Source: a virus. Taken from it: a stretch of 43,457 nt of DNA. The notes under the pieces are model-generated. The model saw only the letters and a program-made list of their open reading frames with translations, did no database searches and was not told the DNA's origin. The translations under genes and the position numbers were made by a program. Position 1 is the stretch's first letter; every line of letters begins with the position of its first letter. Of the stretch, positions 1 through 43,457 are shown piece by piece. The stretch is from the IMG/VR virus record IMGVR_UViG_3300002858_000001, positions 1 to 43,457 of that record; one strand, given 5' to 3'.

Positions 1-53
1 GGAGAGGTGGCCGAGTGGCTTAAGGCGCGCCCCTGCTAAGGGCGGTTAACTTT
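1..53 (+). repeat. attL core: truncated 5' half of tRNA-Ser(GCU)
   Basis: GGAGAGG-TG-GCC-GAGTGGCTTAA-GGC-G-CGCCC-CTGCTAA-GGGCG-GTTAACTTT reads as acceptor 5' strand, 3-bp D stem (class II tRNA) and anticodon stem-loop with anticodon GCT. Identical to 43405..43457. The sequence after nt 53 (TTTAGCATCACC...) has no T arm or acceptor 3' strand, so this copy is a fragment. Confidence 0.85.
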
Positions 54-59
54 TTAGCA

Positions 60-1163
60 TCACCTTGAATTTATTGCGATAATGTCGGCCTGCCCCGGCG
101 TCTCCCCAAGTTTTCCCCAATTCGCAAAATTATACCCGTGCGCGCGCAGCCGGTCAGCGAGATCTGATGGCGCCAGCTTGGTGTAGCGCAGCGCCATGTC
201 GGCCTTCTTCCACCCGCCCGCTTGCATCAAGGCGACTAGGTTGAAGCCGCTGGCCGCGTAATACCACGTCGCCCATGTGTGGCGCAGGACGTGCGGGGTC
301 ACGTCATCGCCCAGCCCGGCCGCCTCACGCGCTTTATTGAATATGCCCGCAAACTGACCGCCTGAATTGTTTTTCCGTATTTTATACCCTTGACCTTTCG
401 GAGTCAGAAAGGCGGGGCCTTGCGGCTTCAATCCGTCCAGCAGCGCGGGAAGGCCCCGGCTGCGTTCGATGGGCGCCCAGCGCGGGTCCTCATTCTTTGG
501 GTTGGCAATCCAGACCTGCGCCGTGGGCACGTTGATGTTGCTGACCTGCAGCCGCACCGCATCACTTGTGCGCATGCCGGTGGCCAGCAATGTCAGGATC
601 AGGCGCCGAGCCCGTGGGCAGGCCGCCTCAATCAAGGTTTCAGCTTCTTCCGGGGTCAGCCAGCGCACGCGGGCATTGTCCTGGACGCCCTTGCGCAGCC
701 CACCCCGTTCATGGTGGCCGATGACCGCGCGCGTGGGCGTGACCGCCTGCCGGTGGCGCGTGGCGGGCTTGGCGTTCGGATACAGGGCGCGGGCGCCTTC
801 CGCGATCACGGGCGGCGTCAGTTCATCCAGCGGCGTGGTGCCCCAATATGTCAGCAGGCGCGCCATGTAACGCGCCTCGCTGCTGTGGTGGTATTCCAGC
901 CCGCGCAGCGCCAGCTTGGCCTTCCGGTCTTCCATATAGGCCAAGGCTGCCTGCGCAAACGAGATGCGGCCGCCCATGGCGGCCGCGTCTTCCAGTTCGC
1001 GTTCCAGCTGGCGCTTGCGCTGCTGGGCTAGTTTCCGGTTGCCAGTCTTAAGGCTGCGTTCAATGAGTCCGTGCCCTTCGACCGTTCCGCGCGCGATGTA
1101 GAATTTATTCCCCTTGCGCTGGCCGGGCGCGATAAGTTCGAGCGGCATGATAGCGACTCCCAT
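60..1163 (-). CDS. int: Tyrosine recombinase / phage integrase
   Basis: 367-aa ORF with C-terminal catalytic-region motifs HVLRHTWATWYY and GGWKKADMALRYTKL. N-terminal KGNKFYIARGTVEG resembles an arm-binding domain. Stop codon is 6 nt from the att repeat. Start could also be the ATG at 1148. Confidence 0.9.
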   Translation of the reverse strand: MGVAIMPLELIAPGQRKGNKFYIARGTVEGHGLIERSLKTGNRKLAQQRKRQLERELEDAAAMGGRISFAQAALAYMEDRKAKLALRGLEYHHSSEARYMARLLTYWGTTPLDELTPPVIAEGARALYPNAKPATRHRQAVTPTRAVIGHHERGGLRKGVQDNARVRWLTPEEAETLIEAACPRARRLILTLLATGMRTSDAVRLQVSNINVPTAQVWIANPKNEDPRWAPIERSRGLPALLDGLKPQGPAFLTPKGQGYKIRKNNSGGQFAGIFNKAREAAGLGDDVTPHVLRHTWATWYYAASGFNLVALMQAGGWKKADMALRYTKLAPSDLADRLRAHGYNFANWGKLGETPGQADIIAINSR

Positions 1164-1800: not shown

Positions 1801-1981
1801 ACGAGCACTCCTCCGCCATGACTTCGCGCGCGCAGGGCGGCGCTTCCGGGTCATCGGTGAAATACGGGTCATCATACTCCCCTGTCAGGGCAAAGTGGGC
1901 ATTGCGCGGGCCCCATCCGGCGCGCAGCATGGCCAGTGCCAAGGCTGCGCGCCACGTCAAAAGTCTCCACCTGGCACGCAT
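1793..1981 (-). CDS. Hypothetical small protein (62 aa)
   Basis: Start ATG shares one nt with the ParB-like stop (TGATG). The stop overlaps the next start. Supported mainly by this coupling pattern. Confidence 0.4.
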   Translation of the reverse strand: MRARWRLLTWRAALALAMLRAGWGPRNAHFALTGEYDDPYFTDDPEAPPCAREVMAEECSYG

Positions 1982-4095
1982 CAGGCCTGCCCCTGCAGCA
2001 GCTTGGCCACGGCGGTTTCCATTTCCGCACGGGGCAGGAACTCGGCCTCTGGCGGTATCCAGCCCTTGGCCACCCGTTCGCCCATGAACTCGGCCAGCCC
2101 GGCCTTGTGGCTGGGCACCGGCTCGCCTTCCTTGGCGCGCAGCGCCGCGCCGGTGGGCACCAGCATGGCCTTAAGCTGGGCGGCCGTGTAATCGCCAAAC
2201 CATTCCTGCGTCGCCAAGTCTTCCCGCGCATCCAGCGCCACGCCGAGGCTGGGCTGTTTCTTCCGGTTCGCTTCGGCATATTCGGCCAGCGCAATGGCTT
2301 CCTTGGATGATCCTGCGTCCGCGGATTGCGTGGGCATGTCGACCAGCTGGGCGCCGATGACCTGCGCATAAAGCGCCAGCAGCTTGTCCATGGGCATGGC
2401 CAGCAGGGTGCGCAGCGCGGTGCCGCGATCTGCCACGCTGGCGCCGTCAAAGCCCTTGAGACCCTTGAACGCCTTGTCGGCCAGTTTCGGCAGTTCGCGC
2501 TCCAGCTTGCCAGCATCGCCGCTGCGGTTCGGCGGGTACATGTCCAGCAGCGTGGCAGAGTGCCAGTCTCGGTCGCCCGGCAGGGCTGCCAGCAGGCCAA
2601 GCGCCACGGCCGCCTGCGGGCTGTCTGAGACCACGTCCCGCATGGCCAGTGACCGGGCCCACGCGCCCGCCATCCAGTTGCGCCGGGCATAGGGCTGCAC
2701 CTTGTCGTCCGGGGCTTCGGCCGGGGCGGCGTCCGCCTTGGCGGCCTTCCCTTTTGCGGGGGCGGCTTTCGTGGCGCCAGATTGGCCGCCAGCGGCCGGC
2801 TTGGTGGTTTCCGGGGCAAAGATGCCGAACCATGCCGCGCCGGTGGCGCCGTCAAGCGCAAAGCGAACATAGGCGCCCTCCGGCATGGTCTTTGGCGCCG
2901 TCTTTTCATCATAGGGCGCGCTGACCAGCTGGCCGCCATGCAGGCGGCTGTGCCAGCTGCCCTCCTGCACCGGGGCGGTCAGGCCGTGCGCCTTGCTGAT
3001 TTCTTCCGCGCGGGCCATGGCCGCCTTGCCCTGCAGATCGCTGAACAATTCCCGGTCTGCCATCAGGCGCTCGACGGTTTTGTCAGGCTGGTCAATGTCG
3101 GTGATTTCGCCACCGGCCGCGATGTATTCGGCCTCGGTGAAAAGCGCATGTGTGGGGTTGTATCCGCCCGCCTTGATCCAGTTGCGCAGATCGGTCGGCG
3201 TTGACGCTTCGCCGTGACGCATCGCCCACAAGGCCTCCTGCTGCAGCTTGGCGGGTTGGCGCGCCAGTTCAATGGCAAACTTGCGTGAGGGGATTTCGCC
3301 ATCTTCCCACGCCTGTTTCGTTTCATCGGTCAGGTTCGCCACCAGCTGGAGGTTCACCTGCACATTGCGGCGCGTGGTGCCGATGCGTTCGGCAATGACG
3401 GCCGTGGCCTTTTCCGGGTCATCCGACTCGGCCTTGCGCAATTCCACCAGCTTGGCCACCGCAATGGCCTGCTCCAGCGGGTGCACATCATCACGGGCCT
3501 GATTTTCCAGAATGGCCGTCTCGAGGTGGTCAGCATCGCTGCCGGTCTGCACCTTGACGGGCACCGGCGCGTTGGCCTTCCATGCGCCGCGCTCCACCAG
3601 CAGCTGCATGGCCTTCCAGCGGCGCTCGCCATACACGATATGATAATGCGGTTTCTTGTTTGAGACCTTCCGCACTCCGATATTCTGCAGCAGGCCTTTT
3701 TCCTGAATGGAGGCGGCCAGTTCGGCCAGCCCGTCAGCGTCAAAGGTTTTGCGCGGGTTCAAGGGGCTGGGCGCAATGTCATCCAGCGGGATGCTGGCCT
3801 CGACGGGCGCAGCCGGTGCGGCCGGTGCGGGTTTGGCCGTAGTCTTTGCGGCCGGTTTCTTGGCCGGGGTTTTCGGCTTGGCCGGGGCCTTCGCCTTGGT
3901 GGCGGGCTTTTTCGCGGCCGGTTTCTTGGCGGCCGGTTTCTTGGCGGCAGGTTTCGAGGCTTCGGCCTCGGCGTCTGCCTTGGCGGTGCCCAGCTTGTCC
4001 TGCAGGCGCTTTTTGGGCAGCGTGACAACCTGTTTCGTGACGGTTTCCGGCACAATGGACTTGGCGGCGGTGGGCTTTTTTGCGGTGGCGGTCAT
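1981..4095 (-). CDS. ParB-family DNA-binding protein (ParB N-terminal/Srx domain + HTH) with lysine-rich N-terminal repeats and a long C-terminal extension
   Basis: 704 aa. IPLDDIAPSPLNPRKTF and HIVYGERRWKAMQLL match ParB box I and box II (GERRxRA arginine patch). IAERIGTTRRNVQVNLQLVANL matches the ParB HTH. The N-terminus has KPAAKKPAAKKPAAKKPATKAKAPAKPK, a histone-H1-like tract. The ~450-aa C-terminal part is of unknown family. Confidence 0.85.
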   Translation of the reverse strand: MTATAKKPTAAKSIVPETVTKQVVTLPKKRLQDKLGTAKADAEAEASKPAAKKPAAKKPAAKKPATKAKAPAKPKTPAKKPAAKTTAKPAPAAPAAPVEASIPLDDIAPSPLNPRKTFDADGLAELAASIQEKGLLQNIGVRKVSNKKPHYHIVYGERRWKAMQLLVERGAWKANAPVPVKVQTGSDADHLETAILENQARDDVHPLEQAIAVAKLVELRKAESDDPEKATAVIAERIGTTRRNVQVNLQLVANLTDETKQAWEDGEIPSRKFAIELARQPAKLQQEALWAMRHGEASTPTDLRNWIKAGGYNPTHALFTEAEYIAAGGEITDIDQPDKTVERLMADRELFSDLQGKAAMARAEEISKAHGLTAPVQEGSWHSRLHGGQLVSAPYDEKTAPKTMPEGAYVRFALDGATGAAWFGIFAPETTKPAAGGQSGATKAAPAKGKAAKADAAPAEAPDDKVQPYARRNWMAGAWARSLAMRDVVSDSPQAAVALGLLAALPGDRDWHSATLLDMYPPNRSGDAGKLERELPKLADKAFKGLKGFDGASVADRGTALRTLLAMPMDKLLALYAQVIGAQLVDMPTQSADAGSSKEAIALAEYAEANRKKQPSLGVALDAREDLATQEWFGDYTAAQLKAMLVPTGAALRAKEGEPVPSHKAGLAEFMGERVAKGWIPPEAEFLPRAEMETAVAKLLQGQA
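3914..3958 (-). repeat. 15-bp tandem repeat x3 encoding the (KKPAA)n tract
   Basis: GCGGCCGGTTTCTTG at 3914..3928 and 3929..3943 are identical. A degenerate third unit lies at 3944..3958. Confidence 0.8.
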
Positions 4096-5320: not shown

Positions 5321-5335
5321 GCGAACCCGGTTCGT
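5321..5335. repeat. Dispersed palindrome copy 1 (GCGAACCCGGTTCGt, 14/15)
   Basis: Lies in the leader between the AT-rich promoter/operator island and the first early-left gene. An extra half-site CCGAACCGG abuts it at 5313..5321. Confidence 0.85.
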
Positions 5336-5339
5336 CGGG

Positions 5340-5440
5340 GAACATGCATAAGATGCATATTTGATGCAAGCAAAAATATGCATCAGATGTATTTTGAAAT
5401 ATTTTCGCCATGTATTTTTCAATGAAACTTGTGTCATCAA
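5340..5440 (-). promoter_or_regulatory. AT-rich promoter/operator island for early-left operon (PL/OL-like)
   Basis: Strikingly AT-rich island in a GC-rich genome. 11-bp perfect inverted repeat GATGCATATTT (5352..5362) / AAATATGCATC (5374..5384). ATGCAT occurs three times. ATGTATTTT occurs at 5387..5395 and 5410..5419 and recurs at 6016..6025. A possible minus-strand promoter is TTGCTT-N17-TATGCA. Confidence 0.6.
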
Positions 5441-5545: not shown

Positions 5546-5923
5546 CTACTCTGCGGCGGGTGGCAGGTTTGGCGCGAAGGCGTCTTTAAGGCTATCCAGC
5601 GTGCTGGAAACGATTGGCCAGAACCGGGGGCTGGAACGCAGTGACTCGATCAGCCCGCGTTCGCGGTCTGTGAGCCCGTCGCCATCTTCCACCAGTTCGG
5701 CCGGGGGAACGTCAAGGATTTCCGCGAGCTGCAGCAATTGCTTTACGGTAATATCAACCTTGCCCCGCTCCCATCTGGCCAGCGTCGGCTGGGATATATT
5801 GAGCGCTTCGGCAAGGCTTTCCTGTGTAAAGCCCGCTTTGACCCGTGCGTCACGGATGCGCAGCCGACTTTGGGCGTCGGACTTTGTGTAGGGGCCACGA
5901 GTCGCCATACCCCATAATGACAT
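5546..5923 (-). CDS. XRE-family HTH repressor (cI-like)
   Basis: RIRDARVKAGFTQESLAEALNISQPTLARWERGKVDITVKQLLQLAEIL is a classic XRE/Cro-C1 HTH. It is divergent from a Cro-like gene. Start is the ATG at 5923 or 5908. The annotated 265-aa ORF start was rejected. Confidence 0.85.
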   Translation of the reverse strand: MSLWGMATRGPYTKSDAQSRLRIRDARVKAGFTQESLAEALNISQPTLARWERGKVDITVKQLLQLAEILDVPPAELVEDGDGLTDRERGLIESLRSSPRFWPIVSSTLDSLKDAFAPNLPPAAE

Positions 5924-6042
5924 TGGCTTGTTACGCGAAACAGAACACCGCGCGTATATTTCAGTCGTCTGGGGTTGCTCAAAAATCCGAATCACCTTTT
6001 CCAAATATACGTAATATGTATTTTTAGGGAGGGGTTTCAACC
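5924..6042. promoter_or_regulatory. Divergent promoter/operator region of the immunity switch (OR-like)
   Basis: Inverted repeat CGTATATTT (5953..5961) / AAATATACG (6003..6011). ATGTATTTTT at 6016..6025 is shared with the OL-like island. SD AGGGAGGGG lies before the ATG at 6043. Confidence 0.6.
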
Positions 6043-6536: not shown

Positions 6537-6738
6537 CGGCAATTACTGCAACGACTGCGCGTGGCCATATGAGTGTGCGGCCGCCCGCAATTGCCATAGG
6601 CGAGATCTGGGGCAGGTGCGCAGCGCAGCCCCGGCCGGGCGCGGGCCATCGGTGCCGCTGCAGGCGCTGCCCAGCGAGGCGGATCATGTGGGCGCGATCA
6701 TACGGGCGCCGAAGCTGCAGGCCGGGGGCAGATCATGA
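6523..6738 (+). CDS. Small Cys-rich (zinc-ribbon-like) protein
   Basis: Internal ATG at 6523. YCNDCAWPYECAAARNC cysteine cluster. ATGA overlap with the next gene. Confidence 0.45.
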   Translation: MARHSGNYCNDCAWPYECAAARNCHRRDLGQVRSAAPAGRGPSVPLQALPSEADHVGAIIRAPKLQAGGRS

Positions 6739-7379
6739 CCCGGAACGCAACCCATACCATGCACGGCCGCGCTGACCTGGACGAGATCGGCGCGGCCGAA
6801 TTGTACGAAACGCCAGTGGCCGCCACGCGGGCCCTTTGCCGGGCTGACCCGTGGTTGCGCGCCCAGCCGCGCATGATCTGGGACCCGGCCTGCGGCCCCG
6901 GCGCAATTGTGGAGGCGGTGCAGGCTGAGGGGCACAAGGCCAAGGCGTCAGACCTTTACAAGTACGAGGGGCGCTGGCGCGGCCAGCCGGGCACGCGGCG
7001 GCGCTGGGGCCATGACTTCCTGAAAGTGAACCCGGCGCACCGGGTCTTTGTTCACGACGCCATCATCATGAACCCGCCTTATTCGATCAAGGATGACTTT
7101 CTACTGAAGGCCATGGACGTCAGCCCGCGCGTTTATGCGCTGCTGGAGGTGACGTGGCTGCAGGGCGGCACGCCCGCCCGTGACGTGCTGCTGGATAGCC
7201 CGCACTGGATTGGTTTTTATCCGTTCCGTGAGCGGCTGAATGAGATGCACCGCGACGGCTTTGAAGGGCGCAAATCTGACCAGCCGCGCCGTCATGCGTG
7301 GTTTGTATTCGGAAGGATTGGAACGCCTGACGGGCCGAAGGTTCGCCGGTTGTCTTTGCAAGGAGGGGCGGATGCCTGA
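6735..7379 (+). CDS. DNA N6-adenine methyltransferase (small, orphan)
   Basis: Motif I-like DPACGPGAIVEAV and motif IV IIMNPPYS (NPPY). No adjacent endonuclease. Confidence 0.75.
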   Translation: MTRNATHTMHGRADLDEIGAAELYETPVAATRALCRADPWLRAQPRMIWDPACGPGAIVEAVQAEGHKAKASDLYKYEGRWRGQPGTRRRWGHDFLKVNPAHRVFVHDAIIMNPPYSIKDDFLLKAMDVSPRVYALLEVTWLQGGTPARDVLLDSPHWIGFYPFRERLNEMHRDGFEGRKSDQPRRHAWFVFGRIGTPDGPKVRRLSLQGGADA

Positions 7380-8336: not shown

Positions 8337-8707
8337 TGCCCGCATGTGAGATTGAGCGCCGCGCGCGTGAGGCGCAGGCGGCCGTCACGTTTGGCGAGGT
8401 GGCGTGGGCGCTGGGCGTGCCCGGATCAAGCCGCGCCGGGTGGAACTGCCCGCGCTGCGGCGGCCAGAACACGCTGCAGGAAGACACGTCCACCGGCAGC
8501 GGGGCATGCGTTGCGGATGGCTGCAAGGCCAAGCCGGGCAAGCTGTTTCTGGTCATGGCGGTGCGCGGCGTTTCGTTCCTGGACGCGATTGCGTGGCTCG
8601 AAACCTACACCGCGCACGCCAAGCGCCCGGCCTATCAGCCAGACCTGAAGGCAGTGCAGAACTTCCCACCCCTGATGAAAGGAGACGGCCCGCATGGCCA
8701 AGAATAA
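8336..8707 (+). CDS. Zinc-finger protein (CHC2 primase-zinc-finger-like)
   Basis: TGATG overlap with the upstream gene. WNCPRCGGQNTLQ...GACVADGCKAKPGKLFLVMAVRGVSFLDAIAWL resembles the DnaG-type zinc-finger layout. No Toprim domain is present. Confidence 0.55.
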   Translation: MPACEIERRAREAQAAVTFGEVAWALGVPGSSRAGWNCPRCGGQNTLQEDTSTGSGACVADGCKAKPGKLFLVMAVRGVSFLDAIAWLETYTAHAKRPAYQPDLKAVQNFPPLMKGDGPHGQE

Positions 8708-9836
8708 AACAGCGGGCCGCCACGGCCTTACCTTCACGGCAGACGCTGCCGAACTGCAGAAAGTTCTAAGCCGGGTGCAAGCGGGGATTGTGCGCAAGGC
8801 ACAAATTCCAATCCTGCTAAACGTGCTGATCGAAGCCGACCCGGACCTTGGCGTCAGCTTCTACACCACGAACCTTGACCAGCAGGCTGAAACCGGGCTG
8901 GGCGCCGATGTGGCAGACGTGACGGCCGGGGGCGCCACTACGGTGGACGCGGCCATGCTTCACAATCTGGTTGGCAAGATGAAAGGCGAAGTCACCCTGT
9001 CGATGACGGGGGAGCACCGGCTGGGCATTTTCTGCGGCAAGGCCAAGGCCGAACTGCCCACCCTTCCGGCTACGGATTTTGTGAAGCTGGGCAGCATTGA
9101 TGACGCCGTGTCATTCGAGATTGCAGGCGGAATGCTGGCCAGCGGGCTGAATTCGGTGTCCCACGCGGTCAGCAGTGAGGAGACGCGCTATTATCTGAAT
9201 GGTGTGCTGATGGAGCACCGGGGCGGCCAGTTGCTGTTCACGGCCACCGATGGGCACCGGCTGGCACACATAGCAGTTACAGCCAGCGGCCATGAACTGG
9301 CGCCCTTCGAGCCCGTCATTGTGCCCCGCTGGGCGTTGGCGCCGCTTGTCAAGCTGGCCGGTCTGGGAACGGACCCGGTCGTGCTGTCAATCGGCCAATC
9401 CATGATGCAGTTGACGGCCGGGCGTGATGCCTTCCGCGTCAAGCTGGTGGACGGCACGTTTCCTGACTATGGCCGCGTGATCCCGAAACCGCCTTTCAAG
9501 TTCACGCAGACCGTGCCGGTGGCTGAAGCCCGCGAAGCGGTCAACCTTGCGATTGCGGCGACCACGGAGAAATCCAACGCAGTCAAGCTGACTGGCGCGG
9601 ATGGGAAGCTGACCGCCCATGTGCAGCAGGACGGCAAATGGGTGGAAGCGTTCATGGAGCACCCTGACATCGTGGACGCTGCGCCCATCGGTGTGAACGG
9701 CAAGTATCTGGTGGCCGCGCTGGACCGCGTCTCAAGTTCGGAAATCAGCCTGAATTACAGCGACGGGCAATCGCCCATGCTGCTGCAGCGTGAGGGCGAC
9801 GCCCTTGTTCAAGTCATCATGCCACTGAGGGTGTAA
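8694..9836 (+). CDS. dnaN: DNA polymerase III beta sliding clamp homologue
   Basis: 380 aa with the three-domain length expected. Motifs IPILLNVLIEA, EETRYYLNGVLMEH, LLFTATDGHRLAH and FPDYGRVIP are typical of DnaN. Confidence 0.85.
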   Translation: MAKNKTAGRHGLTFTADAAELQKVLSRVQAGIVRKAQIPILLNVLIEADPDLGVSFYTTNLDQQAETGLGADVADVTAGGATTVDAAMLHNLVGKMKGEVTLSMTGEHRLGIFCGKAKAELPTLPATDFVKLGSIDDAVSFEIAGGMLASGLNSVSHAVSSEETRYYLNGVLMEHRGGQLLFTATDGHRLAHIAVTASGHELAPFEPVIVPRWALAPLVKLAGLGTDPVVLSIGQSMMQLTAGRDAFRVKLVDGTFPDYGRVIPKPPFKFTQTVPVAEAREAVNLAIAATTEKSNAVKLTGADGKLTAHVQQDGKWVEAFMEHPDIVDAAPIGVNGKYLVAALDRVSSSEISLNYSDGQSPMLLQREGDALVQVIMPLRV

Positions 9837-10707: not shown

Positions 10708-11099
10708 CTGGGGCGATTGATAGCGGCCGGGGCTTTCTGTCAGGAACGCTTAGGGCTGACCATATCACGCAAGGCGGCATCCGCTTTATGGGTGACTGGG
10801 AGGCGCACCTGGAAAGGCAAAAGGCTTGGTCGCTGGCAACGTTCGGCCCGGAGCCGCGCTTGTCTGGTGTCATTGACCATTTGCGCCGGGAACTGATCGA
10901 ACTCGAAGCCGAGCCGCTTGATCTGGAAGAATGGGCGGACGTCATCCTGCTGGCCATGGATGGCGCATGGCGGGCCGGTCACGCGCCTGCGGAAGTGGTG
11001 GCAGCCGTCAAGGCGAAGCAGGCCAAGAATGAGGGCCGGACGTGGCCTGACTGGCGCACCGCAGACCCCGACAAGGCCATTGAGCACGTCAAAGGCTAA
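10704..11099 (+). CDS. DUF550/MazG-like dNTP pyrophosphohydrolase-like protein
   Basis: ATGA overlap with the upstream gene. HLRRELIELEAEPLDLEEWADVILLAMDGAWRAG...KAKQAKNEGRTWPDW resembles the phage dATP/dGTP pyrophosphohydrolase (DUF550) pattern. Confidence 0.5.
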   Translation: MTGAIDSGRGFLSGTLRADHITQGGIRFMGDWEAHLERQKAWSLATFGPEPRLSGVIDHLRRELIELEAEPLDLEEWADVILLAMDGAWRAGHAPAEVVAAVKAKQAKNEGRTWPDWRTADPDKAIEHVKG

Positions 11100-12078: not shown

Positions 12079-12093
12079 GCGAACCCGGTTCGC
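12079..12093. repeat. Dispersed palindrome copy 2 (GCGAACCCGGTTCGC)
   Basis: Intergenic. Ends 20 nt before the ATG at 12114 of the replication-initiator-like gene, immediately before its SD. Confidence 0.9.
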
Positions 12094-14362: not shown

Positions 14363-14516
14363 AGCGCGCGCAGGCCTTCGCGGGTCCTGTCCAGCGTCTG
14401 CACCATGCGGGCAGGCGAAGCGCGCGATGTTTTTTTAGTATCGGCAGCCCCGGAAAGCCTTGCGCAAGTTGGCGCAGGTTGCGCCCCGGCAGCCCCAAAC
14501 GAACCGGGTTCGCTCC
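14363..14516 (+). other. Candidate cos / terminase-recognition region
   Basis: Non-coding stretch directly upstream of a Nu1-like terS and GpA-type terL, the position cos occupies in lambda. 10-bp direct repeat CGGCAGCCCC at 14442..14451 and 14487..14496. Palindrome TTGCGCAA. The cleavage site itself cannot be identified from sequence. Confidence 0.3.
14499..14513. repeat. Dispersed palindrome copy 3 (aCGAACCGGGTTCGC, 14/15)
   Basis: Ends 3 nt before the terS ATG at 14517, occupying the position of a Shine-Dalgarno sequence. Confidence 0.85.
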
Positions 14517-15960: not shown

Positions 15961-18177
15961 ATGGCCGCCTTTTCCGCGTTGGCGCATGGCGCCAGTATCG
16001 TTTTTGCGCAGATCGCAATTTCAGCCGCTCCGCCACCGGAGTTGTCGGTTTCGCAATGGGCTGACCAGTTCCGAATGATCAGCGCGGAGTCCGGCTCCAA
16101 GTATCCCGGCAAATGGCGAACGGATCGCGTGCCGTATCTGCGCGAGCCCATGGATTGCATGGGGGTCAATCATCCGGCTGGCCGGGTTGTGGTGCGCGCG
16201 GGTGCGCAGGTGGGCAAAACGCAGGCCATGAACAATGCGCTGGCGCATATGGTGGACACCGCGCCGCGCGGGGCCATCCTGATGGCGCCCAGTCTCGACA
16301 AGTGCCAAGCGTGGAACCGCGAACAATGGGAGCCCATGCTGGAAGTGACCGAGGCGCTTAAGCTGAAAGTCAGGGCGAACCGTTCGCGGTCTGAGGAAGG
16401 TTCGTCGACCCGGTTCAAGCGTTTCCGGGGCGGCTTCCTTAAGCTGGTGTCGGCGTCAACCGCCAAGGAATTGCAATCGACAACGGCCGGGCTTTTGATC
16501 CTGGAGGAGCCCACCGATTACCCGTTTGACACGGATGGCCGGGGCGACCCGATTGATCAGGCGCGCCACCGGCTGGATGCGTGGGGGGAAGACGGAAAGG
16601 AAATTGCAGCCAGCACGCCCGGCGATAAGGGCAGCTGCCGGATTTCTGAAATGTACGAGGAAGGCGACAAGCGCCTTTTCTATCTGCCGTGCAAGGATTG
16701 CGGCGATTACGCGCCGTTGCACTTTGAGCATTTCCGCTGCGATGACCCGGAAGATGGCGCCAGCGATCCGGCGCCGTATTTCGTGCGCCCGTGCTGCGGT
16801 TCGATCATGCGGCAGGGAGATCTGCCCCGCGCGCTGGACGGCGGCGTCTGGCTGGCAACGTTTGAGACTGACGAGGACCGGAACCCGGCCCCGCCCTTGG
16901 TGGTGCCTGCGGATGATCTGGGCGAATGGCGCAAGCGCCCGCGCGAGGGGCGCTATCCTAGCTTTCATTTGTGGCAGGCTTACAGCCCATTTGCCAGCTG
17001 GCGCGCGATATGGGCCGGGCACAAGGAAGGCAAGGCGCATCCGGATAAGCAGCGCACATTTTACCAGCAGGTTCTGGCCGAACCCTTCGAGCCGGTCATG
17101 GACCGGCCAAAGGCTGACCGGCTTGTGGAACTGGCGCGCCATCCGGCCACGGAAAAACTGGTGGGGCTGCGCCGGGGGATTATTCCGGACTGGTGCTGGA
17201 TGCTGACCGGCGCGGCCGATGTGCAGACCGACCGGATTGAGTGGGCCGCCTATGCGTGGGGCCCGATCAGCGACAAGGATTTCACGGCACCGGCCGGGGA
17301 AGTGGCGCCGGGCGTTCCGGCCACCTGTGGCGCCCTTGTTGATTGGGGCGTGATTTCGCTGCCACCAGATGACCCGCGCGCATGGGCCGAGCTGGCCATG
17401 GTGCAAAATCGCAAATGGCCCGGCCGCGCTTGCGTGCCGTTGACCTTTGATGATTTCGGCGTCGATACGGGCGGCCATTACACGCAGCAGGCTTACCAAG
17501 CGGCCGCGCGCAATATGGGCATGAAAGCCCTGAAAGGCCACAACAACCGGGAGTCCGGGCCGCTGGTCAAAGGCAGCCGGGTGCGCACGACGACCGGCAA
17601 GATGCGCGGGCGGGTCCAGCTTTGGCTGGTGGGTGGCCACAATCTGAAGCGCCGGGTGTATTACGGACTCGGGCAAGCCTTCGCATCTGTAGACATGGGC
17701 GCCGACCCCGGCGCGATGGCTGCAGGCCTGCGTGGCACCAATCGCCGCGAACCCGGTTCGCTGTTCCTGCCTCCGGAGATCAGCCTTGAAATGGCTGAGC
17801 AGATCACGGCCGAATACCTGACGGAAAAGTCAGTCGGCGGCAAGCGCACGCTGGTCTGGGATAAGCCGAAAAGTCAGCCCAATGAGCAGCTGGATTTGGC
17901 GGTGTATTCAATGGCGCTGGCGACCCACCAGTCGCTTGACCGGAAGACATGGGCCGATTGGGCGGCGCTGGCTGATGCGCGCCGAAAGCCGGAGGAAGAT
18001 GACGCGGCCGGGCCGTTGGAGGCCTTGTGGTCTGGCAATGGTGACGCCCTGGACGTGGCGACCGAAAAAGAGAAACCGGCCCCGGTGGCCATTCCTGAAA
18101 CGCGCGTTTCCAACCCCACGCCAACAACCGGCAAAGTGCCGGAGTGGGTGCGGAAGATGCGCGCGCAGCATCAATAG
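15961..18177 (+). CDS. terL: Terminase large subunit, lambda GpA family
   Basis: 738 aa. SVSQWADQFRMISAESGSKYPGKWRTDRVPYLREPMDCMG and VVRAGAQVGKTQ (Walker A) closely parallel the lambda gpA N-terminus. Confidence 0.9.
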   Translation: MAAFSALAHGASIVFAQIAISAAPPPELSVSQWADQFRMISAESGSKYPGKWRTDRVPYLREPMDCMGVNHPAGRVVVRAGAQVGKTQAMNNALAHMVDTAPRGAILMAPSLDKCQAWNREQWEPMLEVTEALKLKVRANRSRSEEGSSTRFKRFRGGFLKLVSASTAKELQSTTAGLLILEEPTDYPFDTDGRGDPIDQARHRLDAWGEDGKEIAASTPGDKGSCRISEMYEEGDKRLFYLPCKDCGDYAPLHFEHFRCDDPEDGASDPAPYFVRPCCGSIMRQGDLPRALDGGVWLATFETDEDRNPAPPLVVPADDLGEWRKRPREGRYPSFHLWQAYSPFASWRAIWAGHKEGKAHPDKQRTFYQQVLAEPFEPVMDRPKADRLVELARHPATEKLVGLRRGIIPDWCWMLTGAADVQTDRIEWAAYAWGPISDKDFTAPAGEVAPGVPATCGALVDWGVISLPPDDPRAWAELAMVQNRKWPGRACVPLTFDDFGVDTGGHYTQQAYQAAARNMGMKALKGHNNRESGPLVKGSRVRTTTGKMRGRVQLWLVGGHNLKRRVYYGLGQAFASVDMGADPGAMAAGLRGTNRREPGSLFLPPEISLEMAEQITAEYLTEKSVGGKRTLVWDKPKSQPNEQLDLAVYSMALATHQSLDRKTWADWAALADARRKPEEDDAAGPLEALWSGNGDALDVATEKEKPAPVAIPETRVSNPTPTTGKVPEWVRKMRAQHQ
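17747..17761. repeat. Dispersed palindrome copy 4 (GCGAACCCGGTTCGC)
   Basis: Inside terL. Read in frame as R-E-P-G-S-L. Confidence 0.9.
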
Positions 18178-23209: not shown

Positions 23210-23224
23210 GCGAACCGGGTTCGC
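23210..23224. repeat. Dispersed palindrome copy 5 (GCGAACCGGGTTCGC)
   Basis: Starts 2 nt after the capsid TAA stop. Followed by a second hairpin at 23229..23253. Confidence 0.9.
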
Positions 23225-24090: not shown

Positions 24091-24768
24091 ATGGTGGGCA
24101 GCCTGCAGTTTCAGGCCGCATTGGCTGGCAACCTGGACGGCTTCCAAAGTGATGTGCGCGCGGCCGTGGCCGAAGCCGGGCGCAGCACGCTGGACTCCAT
24201 CAAGGACAAGGGGCTGGTGCGGTTGCGCGGCTCCCTGCGTGATGCGGGGCTGGGCATGCTGGACAAGTCATGGCGTGCGGAGATCTACCCGCGCGATGGT
24301 AAGGCCATCGAGCCTGCCATCCTGTTTTATTCCAAGGCCGACCAGATTGTGCGCGCCAATGAGGGCGAAACCATCCGGGCGGGCAATGGCAAGAAACTGG
24401 CAATTCCAATACCGGGGAGCCCGGCCGAAAATTTCCCAAACCCGCGTGGCCCTGAAACCAAGGTGGATTATGCGCGCCAGAAATTCGGGGACCGCCTGTT
24501 TGTGATCCCGGCGAACCGGGTTCGCCCGGCGATCCTTGCCGCCGAAGGCGTGGGCCTGACCAAAACCGGCCGGGTGACACTCCGCAAAAAGACGAAAACA
24601 GGCAAGTGGGGCAAAGGCACCGCCACAATTTTCCTTTTCTGGCTGGTTGACGAGGCGGTGATGCAGCAGCGGCTGGATGTTGCGGCCGATTTTGAACGGA
24701 TTTCGCGGGAGTTCGAGAGCGAATACCCGCGCCAGCTGGCCAATGCGATCAAGCGCGCCGGATTGTAG
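24091..24768 (+). CDS. Hypothetical head-tail connector-region protein
   Basis: 225-aa ORF. ATG lies 1 nt after the upstream stop. Confidence 0.6.
   Translation: MVGSLQFQAALAGNLDGFQSDVRAAVAEAGRSTLDSIKDKGLVRLRGSLRDAGLGMLDKSWRAEIYPRDGKAIEPAILFYSKADQIVRANEGETIRAGNGKKLAIPIPGSPAENFPNPRGPETKVDYARQKFGDRLFVIPANRVRPAILAAEGVGLTKTGRVTLRKKTKTGKWGKGTATIFLFWLVDEAVMQQRLDVAADFERISREFESEYPRQLANAIKRAGL
24511..24525. repeat. Dispersed palindrome copy 6 (GCGAACCGGGTTCGC)
   Basis: Inside CDS 24091..24768. Read as A-N-R-V-R-P. Confidence 0.9.
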
Positions 24769-31666: not shown

Positions 31667-34600
31667 ATCGTCAGCACTGCCCCTAAAGGCGGTGCTGCGC
31701 GCCGACCCGTTCGATCCGAAACCGCCCCGGCTGGTGGATGTGCGCGCCGGAGAAACGCTTGCCCAGCTGGTTGACCGCATCGGCCTTGATCCGATTACGC
31801 GGCCGCTGGCCGTGGCTGTCATCGATGGCAAGGAAGTGCCGGAGTCCGATTGGGGCAAGGTGCGCCTGCGCGATGGCGTGCATGTGGCAATCTGCATTGC
31901 GCCGCAGGGCGGCGGGGATGATGGCAACAAGCTGCTGACCACGGTGCTGACCATCTTTGTGATGGTGGCGGCGTTCTGGATTTCCGGGGGTGCACTGGCG
32001 CCCTATCTGGGCGCGGCGTTCGAGGCGGGCAAGGCGGGCGCGGTCATTGCGGGCGCGGCGGTATCGGCTGTCGGGTCTTTGGCCATCAGCGCGCTGGTGC
32101 CGCCACCGCAGGCGCCCGAACAAGACAAGATCAACCAAGTTTATGCCGTGGACGGCGCATCCAACAGGTTTGTGCCGTTCGACCCCATCATCCTAAGCGT
32201 GGGCACGCGCCGCGTGTTTCCGCGTCAGGTGGCGCGCGGGTATCAGGAATTAGTTGGTGACGACTTTTATTACCGCATGGTGGTGGAGTGGGGCCCCATC
32301 GGCGTGGCGCTGTCTGACATCAAGGTGGGTGAAACGCCTATTGAGAATATTGACGGCGTGCAGATGCAGCACCGGCTTACGGCCGATGATCCGCACCCCA
32401 CGCTATACCCGGCGCAAGTGTTTCAGGAGGAAGTCGGGGCCGCCCTGGAAAGCGCAAGCGATTGGGAAGGCCGGACAACCATTCCCGATGCCACGCAAGC
32501 GGCCATTGTTATCGGGTTTCCGGCCGGGCTGGGGCACACATCAAAAAAGGGCAAGTCAGAACAATGGGCCGCGCAGGTGGAGGTGCGGTATCGAAGCGTG
32601 ACCGGCGAACCCGGTTCGCTGGTTTATGGCAGCTGGCAAAGCCCGCCCGGCAATGGGGTGTCATGGCCGACGCGCGGGGGCGTCTATCCCGGCGCGGGCA
32701 AGTATGGTTTCAGTGCAAAGAAACGCAGCCAGCCATTCTTCCGGGCCATCAATTTTGATTTCCCCAGCGCGGGCACCTACGAGGTGCAGGTGCGCCGTTC
32801 CAGCACCAATGAAGATGTGGACACCGACCGCACCTTCGATGACATGACCTTTCAAGTTCTGGAAAGCAGGCGGCCGGGCGTGCCGGTGGCGCGTGACGAC
32901 GTGGCCTATTCGGTTTTCCGGTTCAAGGGCAGCGATGAAACGCAAGGCCGCATCCAGACCATTAACGGTATGGTGTCGCGTCTCATTCCGCGTTTCAATG
33001 ATGCCCTGCTGGATGGCGGCGACCTGTCAACGGCCGGGCCGGAAGACATGACCGCGCCAGCGGCGTCCAGCAATCCGTGGGAAATCATTCTCTGGCTGTA
33101 TCGCAACGGGCTGGATGGGCGCGAGCCCCTGTCTGACAATGCCGTGGACTGGGCTAGTTTGGCCTATGCCGCCAAGGATGCGCGCGACAACGGCTGGACG
33201 TTCGATCATGTGTTTGAGGGCGCGGCCACCATCAGTGAAGCGGTGCAGACAATTGCTTTCAATGCGTGCGGCCGGGCGGCATTCATCGGCAACCGGCTGA
33301 CGGCCGTGGTGGATGGGCCCCAGCTGGCGCCCGTGGCCGTGATTTCTGACCGCAGCGCACGCAATGTCAAAGCGGTGAAGCAACTGTCGCGGCCGCCTGA
33401 TGGCTTCCGGGTCATCTTCGATGATGCCGCAGACGGATACCGCACGCGCGAGGAGCGCGTCTATGTGGGCGACAATACGGCCGCCACGGCGCGCCGGTTC
33501 GAGGAGTTGAAAATTCCGGGGGCGGTGCATTGGGATAATGTGCACCGGCTTGTCGGGCGCAACTATCGCAACAGCCGCATGCAGACCCGGCGCCTGAAAG
33601 CCGAAGTGCCGGTGGATGATCTGGACACGGCCGTGCGCCTTGGCCGGTGGGTGGGTGTGCAGACCAAGGTGGTGGAAGTGGGCCGCGCGGCCGGGTGGAT
33701 ACGCAGCGTCGAGACCAATGGCAGCGGGCACGTCACGGCCGTCATTCTTGACCAGCCTGTCAGCCAGACCGCTGGGGATGATCTGGTGTTGCAATGGAAC
33801 CGGCAGCTTAGCCCGGCCGTGTCCGAACAATTGTCCAGCGCGCTGGAACTGGCACCGGTGGGCGCTGACACTGTGGACGAGCGGGTAGTGTTTGCCAGCC
33901 CTGTCACGGGCGCAGACAAGCCGCAGGCAGGCGATGCTTACACATTCGGCGTTTCCGGCTTTGTGCGCCTTGATGGGCTTGTGGACGATATTGAGGCCAT
34001 CGACCATGAATGGGTGCGCCTGCACATGGTTGATTATGCGCCGGAGCGCTTCGATGAAACCGGGCTGGTCATTCCGGCCTACACCCCGGCATATGAGCGC
34101 CCGGCCTTTATCCGGCCGCCCGAGCTGGAACTGGTGTCGATTGGCCAGAACCTTGACCAGACAACAATTCATTTCCGCATCAAGCCCGGCGATCGCGGGC
34201 AAGCCGTGCGGTTCATTGCTGCGCGCGCGATCGCGCCGGACTCGGGGGATACTGAGGCGGGGGCATGGGATGCGCTGCCAGACCTGCAGGCGGCCGACCG
34301 CCAGCTGGTGGCGCCTGCCGGTCAGGCGGGTGACGCCTTCATATATCGTATTGCGGCGGTGAGCCCTTCCGGCGAGGCGGGGCCTTACCTGCTGGTCGAT
34401 GGCGTGCCCGCCCTGGACACGCTTCCGGCCCCGGATGATGTGCAGGCCGTGGCCAGTATCGAACACGGCGCCACGGGCGGCCAGCGGCCCCTGCTGACCG
34501 TTTCGGCCACGCCGGTGGAGGATGTGCAAATCGTTTCAATGGTCATTGAGGCGCGCCGGGTGGCGCTTGACCTGAATGACGCAAGGCTGCCGGAAGGCGA

Positions 34601-39626: not shown

Positions 39627-39651
39627 TCCCTAAGCAGAAATGGAGTTTGAT

Positions 39652-39996
39652 ATGTCTGGACCGAAGTCTGACACCGAAGTCATGCTGGAGGTGGCCATGC
39701 AGGGCATGCTGCCCCTGATGGCAAAACGCCTGCGCGGAAGCCCGAAATACGAGGCGCTGATTGAGAAGATGGCGCGCACCCGCGCATTCATCAAGGATGC
39801 GCAGGAAAACATTGACCAGAAAATGGCCGAAATGGAGCAGGACGCCAAAGACTTCCTGACCGATTTCGGTTTGGGTCAGGTTCTGGCTGACATCGATGCG
39901 GCCAGCCAGCGCATGGATGCGGCGGACTCCGATCCGGCCGCAACGCCCATGCGGCTGGTGCGCCCCAGCGAACCGGGTTCGCCGGGCGCGGAGTAA
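39652..39996 (+). CDS. Hypothetical soluble protein preceding the lysis genes
   Basis: The ATG at 39652 has GGAG 5 nt upstream. The ORF-track start at 39640 is also possible. No transmembrane segment. Confidence 0.55.
   Translation: MSGPKSDTEVMLEVAMQGMLPLMAKRLRGSPKYEALIEKMARTRAFIKDAQENIDQKMAEMEQDAKDFLTDFGLGQVLADIDAASQRMDAADSDPAATPMRLVRPSEPGSPGAE
39968..39982. repeat. Dispersed palindrome copy 8 (GCGAACCGGGTTCGC)
   Basis: Lies 12 nt before the stop of CDS 39652..39996. Read as S-E-P-G-S-P. Confidence 0.9.
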
Positions 39997-43245: not shown

Positions 43246-43260
43246 GCGAACCGGGTTCGC
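43246..43260. repeat. Dispersed palindrome copy 9 (GCGAACCGGGTTCGC)
   Basis: Intergenic, 69 nt upstream of the ATG at 43177 of the minus-strand accessory operon. Confidence 0.9.
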
Positions 43261-43404: not shown

Positions 43405-43457
43405 GGAGAGGTGGCCGAGTGGCTTAAGGCGCGCCCCTGCTAAGGGCGGTTAACTTT
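43405..43457 (+). tRNA. attR core = 5' part of tRNA-Ser(GCU), running off the window
   Basis: Identical to 1..53. Cloverleaf elements up to the start of the variable arm, anticodon GCT. The 3' part lies beyond the window, so intactness cannot be verified. Confidence 0.7.

What the first reader, a model, noticed from the sequence alone, without database searches (positions are those of the whole stretch)
1981..4095. ParB-family protein as candidate reader of the dispersed palindromes (KorB-like global operator network in a prophage)
The largest early gene encodes a bona fide ParB architecture: box I, an intact GERRWKA arginine patch (the CTP-binding motif in ParB proteins), and the HTH IAERIGTTRRNVQVNLQL. 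Established knowledge is that ParB proteins recognise palindromic parS sites. The ParB homologue KorB of plasmid RK2 binds 12 dispersed copies of TTTAGCSGCTAAA, an odd-length palindrome with a central S, located in promoters and inside genes, and acts as a global repressor. The nine GCGAACCSGGTTCGC sites have the same design and the same mixed promoter-proximal and intragenic distribution. No ParA partner is present, which argues for regulation or silencing rather than partition. This link is inference only.
Basis: inference. Interest (0 to 1): 0.7.

Follow-up and report, generated by a model that had tools for sequence, protein, structure and literature searches.

The report
Prophage ParB clamp with dispersed loading sites
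A prophage encodes a partner-less ParB-type DNA-binding protein, and comparison with about a hundred related phages indicates that it reads the nine evenly spaced 15-bp palindromes on the phage genome, giving a testable site-and-protein pair for a large, uncharacterised class of phage ParB proteins.

Summary
ORF 1981-4095(-) encodes a 704-aa ParB-family protein: a disordered Lys/Ala/Pro-rich tail, a ParB N-domain with GERRWKA, a ParB/Noc-like HTH, and a ~400-aa C-terminal domain with no known fold. The window is one complete prophage. It carries nine copies of CGAACCSGGTTCG (seven exact 15-mers, two with one mismatch; none expected by chance). They are spaced more evenly than random.

The ParB-palindrome link is supported by comparative data, not biochemistry.
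- Related phage ParB genes almost always have a copy within about 2 kb upstream of, or inside, their 5' end.
- Two site variants exist, CGAACC-S-GGTTCG and CGAACG-S-CGTTCG. No locus has both.
- A prediction of site type from ParB clade was confirmed.
- Of about 250 alignment columns, only one separates the two types without overlap. It is the position equivalent to ParB G201/Noc R201, a proven specificity residue. It is R271 here.
- About 27 kb of host flank has no sites.

No ParA gene, no ParA-binding motif and no conserved neighbour gene is present.

The function is unproven. It could be KorB-like silencing, BisD-like activation or genome organisation. Family-wide, about three quarters of sites lie inside genes, which favours clamp-loading sites over classical operators. 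This is a new variant of a known kind.

The parts
1981..4095 (-). Gene for the 704-aa orphan ParB-family protein
   Evidence: ORF and translation. Pfam ParB_N E 3.6e-18. PHROG ParB-like. NCBIfam parB_part/Noc. Full-length homologues P0001-P0015 sit in syntenic prophages.
3814..4095 (-). N-terminal ~94 residues: disordered Lys/Ala/Pro-rich (AAKKP-repeat) tail with no ParA-binding motif
   Evidence: pLDDT below 50 for residues 1-94. Sequence. DNA repeat family D3.
3496..3804 (-). ParB N-domain (CTPase fold), residues ~98-200, with box I PSPLNPRK, GERRWKA and ILENQAR
   Evidence: Pfam ParB_N. Profile match to Noc/Spo0J/ParB structures. Foldseek E 2e-10.
3256..3417 (-). HTH plus the following helix, residues ~227-280: the predicted DNA-reading module
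   Evidence: Aligned to the Noc/ParB DNA-binding domain. Helices 227-238, 242-254, 257-264 and 271-278 in the model.
3283..3285 (-). Codon of R271, equivalent to Caulobacter ParB G201 / Noc R201 (specificity residue)
   Evidence: It is the only alignment column that separates type-C from type-G ParBs with zero overlap. The role of the residue is taken from PMC7383237.
1984..3210 (-). C-terminal ~409 residues: conserved alpha/beta plus helical domain of unknown fold (probable dimerisation/effector domain)
   Evidence: Model pLDDT 77. No PDB match (best E=1). One weak BFVD match. No Pfam/NCBIfam/PADLOC family. 16 representatives among 1.84 billion proteins.
5321..5335 (.). Palindrome copy 1 (GCGAACCCGGTTCGT, one mismatch), in the leader of the ParB operon
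   Evidence: The same placement is seen in L240:8743, L242:9344 and L246:9452.
5336..5430 (-). Promoter-like AT-rich region of the ParB operon, with AAAATACAT and ATGCAT repeats (candidate cI operators). An intrinsic-terminator-like hairpin of cI lies upstream.
   Evidence: Sequence read. Similar TTGCxx-N17-CAxxTT spacing in L242. This part is inference.
12079..12093 (.). Palindrome copy 2, intergenic, 21 nt before the ATG (12114) of a 338-aa ORF
   Evidence: Same position in L240.
14499..14513 (.). Palindrome copy 3 (ACGAACCGGGTTCGC, one mismatch), 3 nt before the ATG at 14517
17747..17761 (.). Palindrome copy 4, inside the large terminase gene (encodes R-EPGS-L)
23210..23224 (.). Palindrome copy 5, directly after the stop codon of the 346-aa ORF 22168-23208
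24511..24525 (.). Palindrome copy 6, inside ORF 24091-24768 (encodes ANRVR)
32605..32619 (.). Palindrome copy 7, inside the 1397-aa tail gene (encodes G-EPGS-L). It is absent at the homologous position in L057.
39968..39982 (.). Palindrome copy 8, in the last codons of ORF 39640-39996 and 20 nt before the next start
43246..43260 (.). Palindrome copy 9, non-coding, about 150 bp from attR
1..53 (+). attL core (53-nt direct repeat, tRNA-Ser-like 5' half). It shows that all nine sites lie inside one prophage.
   Evidence: Repeat family D8.
43405..43457 (+). attR core, identical 53-nt repeat
   Evidence: Repeat family D8.

Best explanation
The 704-aa protein is an orphan ParB-family DNA-binding protein, probably an NTP-gated clamp. 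Its cognate parS-like sites are the nine 13-15-bp odd palindromes CGAACC-S-GGTTCG.

Proposed mechanism:
- A dimer reads each site through the HTH and the helix after it.
- R271 contacts the base pair that flanks the central S. This is analogous to Noc R201 reading C6:G-6 of the Noc-binding site.
- One site sits in the leader of the protein's own operon.
- The other eight are spread at about 4.8-kb intervals, so protein loaded at the sites could reach the whole 43-kb phage genome.
- With no ParA, the system is not a classical partition machine.

Most likely it works as a long-range regulator or organiser of the phage genome, like KorB (silencing) or BisD (activation). The novel ~400-aa C-terminal domain would provide dimerisation and effector contacts.

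Shown here: ParB fold and motifs; site statistics; site-protein co-location; mutual exclusivity; residue-base covariation.
Inferred: direct binding, CTP dependence, sliding, and the biological output.
For: Protein identity.

Sites: 9 observed against 0-0.3 expected. The motif is sharp, with no degenerate intermediates. Copies share no flanking conservation.

Spacing on the circularised genome is more even than random (CV 0.46 against 0.86; P=0.017).

Co-location in ParB-first samples:
- Syntenic relatives with 38-93% identical ParB keep a site in the leader of the ParB operon.
- In the wHTH-ParB subfamily a site lies at +214 to +280 inside the gene. It falls in different reading frames and encodes different peptides.

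Specificity:
- Type C and type G sites never co-occur. One search gives 16 C-only, 18 G-only and 0 mixed loci. add more of each.
- Site type predicted in advance for P0010/P0012/P0015 was confirmed.
- Among 29 type-C and 23 type-G ParBs, only the G201/R201-equivalent column separates them. Type C has R18 K4 S6 T1. Type G has A10 E7 H3 Q2 M1. The next best column overlaps by 0.28.
- Cross-type pairs reach 50-55% identity, while within-type identity falls to 23%.
- That residue is a proven ParB/Noc specificity determinant that reads an inner base pair (PMC7383237).

Arguments against a host factor:
- About 27 kb of host flanks hold 0 sites.
- Type C and type G elements both occur in Caulobacterales.
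- 65 of 79 phage loci retrieved by large-terminase (TerL) similarity to one type-C phage have neither sites nor ParB.

Other points:
- ParB is the only window DNA-binding protein that recurs with the sites, and it has no conserved neighbour gene.
- Precedents for ParB-like CTP clamps used in regulation: KorB (PMC11790492) and BisD, which has odd palindromic bisS sites (PMC12409273).
Against: - There is no biochemical evidence of binding or of CTP use.
- Box I has N where canonical ParB has the catalytic Q, and some relatives have an altered arginine patch (GEQRW, GNRRW). The nucleotide cycle may therefore differ or be lost.
- Six type-C ParBs have Ser and one has Thr at the key position, so the Arg/Lys-guanine reading is not the whole code.
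- Many compared sequences are related, and no formal phylogenetic correction was done.
- Two IMG/VR prophage fragments carry 5-6 sites but no ParB within their called boundaries. Synteny suggests truncation, but this was not proven.
- A few loci with a type-C-like ParB showed no exact site in the fetched DNA (L336, L346).
- The regulatory output is pure inference. Family-wide the sites are mostly intragenic.
Confidence: 0.78

Rival explanations
1. The palindromes are read by a host protein, or by another phage protein. ParB merely co-occurs because both are traits of one phage and host lineage.
For: - The same 15-mer is shared by ParBs only 23-35% identical in the DNA-binding region.
- Two prophage fragments have sites but no ParB inside their called boundaries.
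- Host taxonomy of most IMG/VR contigs is unknown.
Against: - Site type flips between C and G in step with one ParB residue, even between ParBs 50-55% identical.
- Type C and type G never co-occur.
- Both types occur in Caulobacterales.
- Host flanks lack sites.
- No other window protein recurs with the sites, and no neighbour gene is conserved.
- The cI-like repressor's candidate operators are different motifs.
Confidence: 0.08
2. It is a true segregation (centromere) system. ParB bound at dispersed centromeres partitions an excised or plasmid form of the phage, using a host ParA or a ParA-independent route, as with the dispersed centromeres of phage-plasmid N15.
For: - The ParB architecture and parS-like sites fit.
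- Dispersed centromere sites are known for N15 (from my own knowledge, not verified here).
- A site lies near or within the parB gene, which is typical of partition loci.
Against: - The element is an integrated prophage with an integrase and att repeats.
- No ParA Walker motif occurs in any frame.
- There is no ParA-binding motif in the N-terminus.
- Nine sites are far more than partition needs.
- Relatives are likewise integrated, next to integrase or serine-recombinase genes.
Confidence: 0.07
3. The palindromes act as nucleic-acid structures, such as RNA hairpins, terminators, RNA stabilisers or DNA cruciforms, and are not protein-binding sites.
For: - The 15-mer alone can fold as a 7-bp stem with a triloop (-8.2 kcal/mol).
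- Several window copies lie at gene boundaries, including one directly after the capsid-like ORF.
Against: - In context, the minimum-energy folds do not use the palindrome hairpin, or are no better than shuffles.
- About 74% of 105 sites family-wide are intragenic.
- No U-tract follows the sites.
- Both orientations of the central S occur.
- Sequence rather than pairing is conserved: only two variants exist and there are no compensatory changes.
Confidence: 0.03
4. The sites are targets of a DNA-modification or restriction function. CCSGG, embedded in the motif, is a known restriction site type (BcnI/NciI, from my own knowledge), and the sites could be linked to the phage's two methyltransferases.
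For: - The window encodes two DNA methyltransferases.
- Phage ParB-like proteins can partner DNA-modifying enzymes (PMC13229309; PMC12704722).
Against: - The conserved unit is 13-15 bp, not 5 bp.
- Type G lacks CCSGG.
- Homologues of the methyltransferase at 6735-7379 were seen in only 3 site-bearing loci, and the N6_N4-type one at 15230-15958 in four.
- The modification-linked ParBs described lack a DNA-binding domain, whereas this one has it.
Confidence: 0.04

Closest known systems
KorB-OB system of IncP-1 plasmid RK2
   Same: - It is a ParB-family protein with a CTPase fold and an HTH.
- It has many (12) dispersed, near-identical palindromic sites on one mobile element.
- It acts in gene regulation through a CTP-gated sliding clamp (PMC11790492).
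- The model here matches KorB structures (Foldseek E 1e-8).
   Different: - KorB has the ParA partner IncC and the clamp-locking partner KorA. Neither is present here.
- There is no KorB-specific Pfam domain, and profile similarity is low (E 2e-4 over ~65 residues).
- The C-terminal domain is different and much larger.
- The element here is an integrated prophage.
- Sites are mostly intragenic family-wide.
BisD-bisS of ICEclc (Pseudomonas)
   Same: - It is an orphan ParB-like N-terminal module fused to a long, novel C-terminal domain.
- It is encoded on an integrated mobile element, with no ParA.
- Its site is an odd-length palindrome with a free central base (GAGCTATCCCCnGGGGATAGCTC).
- It shows CTP-dependent accumulation and long-range spreading that controls element genes (PMC12409273).
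   Different: - BisD has only two sites 2 kb apart. This phage has nine, spread evenly over the genome.
- BisD needs the FlhC-like BisC, and no conserved partner was seen here.
- Homology of the C-terminal domains could not be tested because no BisD sequence was at hand.
- BisD activates transcription, whereas the direction of any effect here is unknown.
Noc-NBS (Bacillus nucleoid occlusion protein)
   Same: - It is the best sequence and structure match (E 1e-22 and 2e-10).
- It is partner-less, with many dispersed palindromic sites that have a CC..GG centre.
- It has Arg at the 201-equivalent position, which reads the inner C:G pair (PMC7383237).
   Different: - Noc is chromosomal and restricted to Firmicutes.
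- Its site is a 16-bp even palindrome.
- It has an N-terminal membrane-targeting helix instead of a Lys/Ala/Pro-rich tail.
- It has a canonical small C-terminal domain.
- Its NCBIfam score here is far below the Noc cut-off (86 against 315 bits).
Canonical chromosomal/plasmid ParABS and the dispersed centromeres of phage-plasmid N15
   Same: - The ParB fold and GERRxRA motif are shared.
- parS-like palindromes occur, with a copy at or inside the parB gene.
- N15 has several centromere copies scattered in a phage genome (from my own knowledge).
   Different: - There is no ParA and no ParA-binding motif.
- There is no PF23552 C-terminal dimerisation domain.
- The element is integrated rather than a plasmid.
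- Box I has N instead of the catalytic Q.

Membership tests
ParB/Noc/KorB superfamily (ParB-CTPase fold with HTH) | ParB N-terminal domain (PF02195) | tested here: met
   E 3.6e-18, 65.8 bits against a cut-off of 26.3. TIGR00180 scores 84.6 against a cut-off of 58.45.
ParB/Noc/KorB superfamily (ParB-CTPase fold with HTH) | Arginine patch GxRRxRA (box II) and EN..R (box III) | tested here: met
   GERRWKA and ILENQAR are in the translation. G156, E157 and R159 are invariant among 8-13 homologues.
ParB/Noc/KorB superfamily (ParB-CTPase fold with HTH) | Box I with the catalytic Gln (..QPR..) | tested here: not met
   The family has PSPLNPRK, with Asn in place of Gln. The consequence for NTP hydrolysis is unknown.
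ParB/Noc/KorB superfamily (ParB-CTPase fold with HTH) | ParB-type HTH DNA-binding domain | tested here: met
   Pfam HTH_ParB alone is sub-threshold (E 0.062). However, the profile aligns through the HTH to Noc/Spo0J, and Foldseek aligns about 215 columns to Noc, ParB and KorB.
ParB/Noc/KorB superfamily (ParB-CTPase fold with HTH) | CTP binding/hydrolysis and clamp closure | not testable with these tools
   This needs ITC or DRaCALA and cross-linking assays.
ParB/Noc/KorB superfamily (ParB-CTPase fold with HTH) | Sequence-specific binding to a cognate palindrome | tested here: inconclusive
Comparative support is strong: co-location, mutual exclusivity, a confirmed prediction, and covariation at the G201/R201-equivalent residue.
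Canonical ParABS partition system | Adjacent ParA (Walker-type ATPase) gene | tested here: not met
   No KGGxGK[ST] occurs in six frames. No ParA was called in the relatives' neighbourhoods.
Canonical ParABS partition system | N-terminal ParA-binding motif LG[KR]G[LFI] | tested here: not met
   The motif is absent from residues 1-100. The motif definition is from PMC12704722.
Canonical ParABS partition system | Small C-terminal dimerisation domain (PF23552) | tested here: not met
   There is no Pfam hit. It is replaced by a ~400-aa domain with no fold match.
KorB-type global regulator | Many dispersed near-identical palindromic sites on the element | tested here: met
   There are nine sites in 43.4 kb. 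Relatives have 1 site per ~5 kb.
KorB-type global regulator | Sites positioned at or near promoters of the regulated operons | tested here: inconclusive
   In the window, 6 of 9 sites are at gene boundaries or non-coding. Family-wide the figure is 26% against a 19% background, P=0.055, with crude gene calls.
KorB-type global regulator | KorA-like clamp-locking partner and IncC (ParA) partner | tested here: not met
   No gene next to ParB is conserved across clades, and there is no ParA.
BisD-type activator clamp | ParB-like N-terminal module plus a long non-ParB C-terminal domain on an integrated element, with odd palindromic sites | tested here: met
   Architecture. att repeats. Odd palindrome with central S. 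BisD description.
BisD-type activator clamp | Homology of the C-terminal domain to BisDact, and presence of a BisC (FlhC-like) partner | not tested
No FlhC-like family was seen among the 20 window proteins scanned.

The most novel reading that the evidence does not exclude
A large, previously uncharacterised family of prophage-encoded orphan ParB clamps marks the phage's own genome through evenly spaced loading sites and coats it end to end.
- Site specificity would have been re-programmed repeatedly in nature (CC-S-GG to CG-S-CG, and further variants) through the same residue that separates ParB from Noc.
- The coating would perform a phage-specific task not yet known for ParB proteins. Candidates are discriminating self from host DNA for replication, packaging or anti-defence, or switching the genome-wide transcription state at induction. 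The novel 400-aa C-terminal domain would mediate this.
Probability: 0.3. Interest if true: 0.85.

Novelty: new variant of a known kind. Interest (0 to 1): 0.72.

Why it matters
Orphan ParB-like genes are common on prophages and other mobile elements. A 2025 survey (PMC12704722) lists them as functionally unexplored. This analysis provides several new handles.
- It gives a whole family of such proteins a candidate cognate DNA site.
- It provides a natural pair of site variants.
- It names a single candidate specificity residue (R271 here), so binding and specificity-swap experiments can be designed directly.
- If binding is confirmed, it would be a natural replay of the ParB-to-Noc specificity switch.
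- It would add a third example, after KorB and BisD, of ParB clamps used for something other than segregation, this time in phages.
- The evenly spaced, mostly intragenic sites suggest whole-genome loading rather than promoter-local control. That would be a new design for phage genome regulation or organisation.

Tried and rejected
- Close phage relatives: megablast of 25 kb against 50,697 phage records found nothing. tblastn found only N-domain hits under 45% identical.
It returned almost only single, chance-level hits across many phyla, so it said little about host-wide abundance. It did yield L189 and L234, the only two-site loci, and both carry ParB.
- A mixed-subfamily ParB alignment was too divergent for locus search. 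It was replaced by subfamily alignments.
- Extending stored IMG/VR chunks by searching for their terminal 40-mers returned only the same chunk. This was solved for one contig by querying with its terminase.
- C-terminal domain: Pfam, NCBIfam, PADLOC, PDB sequence search, and Foldseek against PDB and BFVD gave no informative match.
- RNA-hairpin reading: folding in context gives no support.
- The cI-like repressor as reader is rejected. No palindrome lies in the cI-cro region, and the candidate cI operators are other motifs.
- Methyltransferase or restriction target is rejected (see rivals).
- A conserved partner gene next to ParB was sought and none was found.
- Promoter association of the sites was tested family-wide and is not significant.
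Full report
**1. Observation**

The window is one complete prophage. Identical 53-nt direct repeats resembling the 5' half of a tRNA-Ser gene lie at 1-53 and 43405-43457. An integrase gene is at 60-1163(-).

ORF 1981-4095(-) encodes 704 aa.
- Pfam ParB_N matches residues 101-198 (E 3.6e-18). PHROG ParB-like families and NCBIfam parB_part/Noc models also hit.
- The translation contains PSPLNPRK (box I, with Asn in place of the canonical Gln), GERRWKA, and IAERIGTTRRNVQVNLQL.
- A profile of eight full-length homologues aligns with Noc, Spo0J and ParB structures through both the N-domain and the HTH (E 1e-22).
- An AlphaFold2 model (pLDDT 69.5) has a disordered Lys/Ala/Pro-rich N-terminus (residues 1-94) and a confident ParB core (98-310). 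Foldseek matches that core to Noc, ParB and KorB (E 2e-10 to 1e-8).
- The C-terminal ~400 residues fold confidently when modelled alone (pLDDT 77) but have no informative match in PDB or BFVD. No Pfam, NCBIfam or PADLOC family hits them. Only 16 representatives match among 1.84 billion proteins.

The palindrome GCGAACCSGGTTCGC occurs 7 times exactly and twice with one outer mismatch. All nine copies share CGAACCSGGTTCG. Shuffles give 0 to 0.3 matches. Every AACCSGGTT in the window belongs to a full site, so the motif is unusually sharp.

**2. Is the palindrome a host-wide or chance motif?**

- Single copies turn up by chance in many high-GC genomes of many phyla. They also occur singly in many viral contigs.
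- About 16 IMG/VR contigs of 30-58 kb carry 2-4 or more exact copies.
- The copies share no flanking sequence.
- Among 120 genome loci, the only two with two copies (L189, L234) both encode a ParB-like protein.
- Among 119 viral loci, ParB hits occur only in multi-copy contigs.
- Host DNA flanking four related prophages (about 27 kb) has no copy.
- A sample of 79 phage loci was chosen by similarity of the large terminase (TerL) to that of one type-C phage. Sites occur only in one lineage, and 65 loci have neither sites nor ParB.

**3. ParB-first samples**

Full-length homologues (P0001-P0015, 28-93% identical) lie in syntenic prophages between a cI-like repressor gene and a terminal recombinase gene (a tyrosine integrase, or a serine recombinase in L327). 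Each has a palindrome copy a few hundred bp upstream of ParB. In the window clade it sits just downstream of a conserved promoter-like sequence in the operon leader.

Two IMG/VR scans with ParB alignments gave about 100 further loci.
- Two main site variants appear: type C (CGAACC-S-GGTTCG, as in the window) and type G (CGAACG-S-CGTTCG). Each is dispersed at roughly one per 5 kb.
- No locus has both types. alone gives 16 C-only, 18 G-only and 0 mixed loci. add more.
- In the subfamily that carries an extra N-terminal winged helix, a copy lies at +214 to +280 inside the ParB gene in both C and G phages. It encodes different peptides (REPGSP, ANPVRP), so the DNA motif rather than the peptide is conserved.
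- Other ParB clades have their own dispersed palindromes: CGCACGnCGTGCG (eight copies in 16 kb of L357), CGAGCGnCGCTCG, GTGCGGACGTCCGCAC and TTCCGCGCGGAA.
- Before looking, I predicted from ParB similarity that the P0010, P0012 and P0015 contigs would carry type G. They do, with 3, 3 and 1 copies.

**4. Residue-base covariation**

I aligned 29 type-C and 23 type-G ParBs.
- Exactly one well-populated column of about 250 separates the types with zero overlap. Type C has R18, K4, S6, T1. Type G has A10, E7, H3, Q2, M1. The next best column overlaps by 0.28.
- Cross-type pairs can be 50-55% identical (L333 against L330; L189 against L335), with nearly the same recognition helix. Within-type identity falls to 23-26%. 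Site type therefore follows this residue rather than overall relatedness.
- The column aligns with the Gly of B. subtilis Spo0J LSAGHGR. That corresponds to Caulobacter ParB G201 and Noc R201.
- That position is one of four residues shown experimentally to set parS versus NBS specificity. The Arg hydrogen-bonds guanine -6 near the dyad (PMC7383237).
- In the window protein the residue is R271.
- The base that differs between type C and type G is the one flanking the central S, an inner position of the half-site. Arg/Lys with a C:G pair, against Ala/Glu with the inverted pair, fits a direct contact.
- Ser or Thr in seven type-C proteins shows that the code is not complete.

**5. Other candidates**

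- ParB is the only DNA-binding protein of the window that recurs with the sites.
- The genes next to ParB differ between clades.
- The cI-like repressor (5546-5995) has other candidate operators: AAAATACAT and ATGCAT repeats in the cI-cro region and upstream of the ParB operon. No palindrome lies between cI and cro.
- An RNA-hairpin role is not supported by folding in context.
- A methylation or restriction role does not fit a 13-15-bp unit or the type-G variant.

**6. Possible counter-examples**

Nine of 16 multi-copy contigs were shown to encode ParB. The others are only partly fetched.

One contig, 2919784490_000002, has 5 sites and no ParB domain in 98% of its length. A near-identical relative, 2851166323_000001, has at least 6 sites. 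Their closest relatives (TerL 71-83% identical: L414, L413, L433, L333) carry ParB about 8.6 kb upstream of TerL. By synteny that position lies just beyond the left end of these prophage calls. I regard them as truncated, but this is unproven.

**7. How it probably works**

Shown: fold, motifs, sites, co-location and covariation.

Inferred:
- A ParB dimer nucleates at the palindromes.
- By analogy with ParB, Noc, KorB and BisD, it closes as an NTP-gated clamp and moves onto flanking DNA.

On the circularised 43.4-kb genome the nine sites are spaced more evenly than random. The CV is 0.46 against 0.86, and the largest gap is 8.1 kb against an expected 13.6 kb (P=0.017).

Site positions turn over between relatives. 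The site in the tail gene is absent at the homologous position of L057. This suggests that coverage matters rather than exact position.

Family-wide, 74% of 105 sites are intragenic (26% non-coding against 19% of the DNA, P=0.055). That favours loading sites over promoter operators.

No ParA gene, ParA-binding motif or Walker motif exists, so classical partition is unlikely.

The operon seems to have its own promoter with candidate cI operators, plus a ParB site in the leader. This suggests early expression after induction and autoregulation, which is inference.

My best guess for the output is long-range transcription control of the phage genome, either KorB-like silencing or BisD-like activation. 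Genome organisation or segregation, or an anti-defence role, are alternatives.

**8. Comparison and novelty**

The protein is a member of the ParB superfamily. It fails the defining features of canonical ParABS: no ParA, no ParA-binding motif, no small C-terminal domain, and no box I Gln. It also lacks the KorB partners KorA and IncC.

In architecture and context it is closest to BisD of ICEclc (PMC12409273). In sequence and in the Arg at position 201 it is closest to Noc.

Prophage-encoded orphan ParBs are known as a class but are uncharacterised (PMC12704722). No paper in the searchable library contains these 13-mers.

I rate it a new variant of a known kind, with interest 0.72.

Noticed in passing
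window 1-53 and 43405-43457: There are identical 53-nt direct repeats resembling the 5' half of a tRNA-Ser gene. They are the att core, so the window is exactly one integrated prophage.
   Followed up: partly
window 8694-9836 (+): The phage encodes a DnaN-like sliding clamp (DNA_pol3_beta domains in the relatives' gene calls). It is conserved in the syntenic relatives L240, L242 and L246 but absent from the type-G ParB phages L327 and L328.
   Followed up: no
window 6735-7379 (+) and 15230-15958 (+): There are two DNA methyltransferase genes. One matches PHROG 799. The other is N6_N4_Mtase and lies directly upstream of the large terminase gene. Their target sites are unknown.
   Followed up: no
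window 5380-5420 and ~6010-6030: AAAATACAT repeats occur both upstream of the ParB operon and in the 47-bp cI-cro intergenic region. ATGCAT-containing inverted repeats (TGCAT-N5-ATGCA, 5354-5368) also occur. These are candidate cI operators, which would imply that the ParB operon is repressor-controlled.
   Followed up: partly
window 12701-12713 and 12756-12768: A second palindrome, GGCAATnATTGCC, occurs twice, 55 bp apart, inside the 338-aa ORF. It is conserved in L240 and L066.
   Followed up: no
window 34923-35417: There are tandem repeats of about 126 nt (68-74% identical) inside the 1397-aa tail/host-specificity gene.
   Followed up: no
window 10704-11099 (+): This is a MazG-like dATP/dGTP pyrophosphohydrolase gene (PF04447, E 1.7e-24).
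   Followed up: no
L357 (8 copies), L355, L351, L387, L266, L269: Other phage ParB clades carry their own dispersed palindromes: CGCACGnCGTGCG, CGAGCGnCGCTCG, GTGCGGACGTCCGCAC and TTCCGCGCGGAA. Dispersed cognate sites may be a general property of phage orphan ParBs.
   Followed up: partly
L338, L340, L354, L359 (0.5-1.6 kb upstream of ParB); L343, L347: Pairs of GGGGAAnnTTCCCC or CGGTAAnnTTACCG recur upstream of ParB in the winged-helix ParB subfamily. They are probably operators of another regulator, or of the winged-helix domain.
   Followed up: no
P0007, P0008, L248, L249 (GEQRW); L414 (GNRRW); L009 (GARRRR); whole family PSPLNPRK: The nucleotide-binding motifs vary within the family. The first Arg of the GERR motif is replaced in some members (GEQRW), and in L414 the Glu is replaced instead (GNRRW). 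All members have Asn instead of the catalytic Gln in box I. Nucleotide use may therefore differ from canonical ParB.
   Followed up: no
IMG/VR contigs 2919784490_000002 (L410, L098, L103) and 2851166323_000001 (L411): These prophage calls have 5-6 type-C sites but no ParB gene inside their boundaries. Synteny with relatives places the expected ParB just beyond the left contig end.
   Followed up: partly
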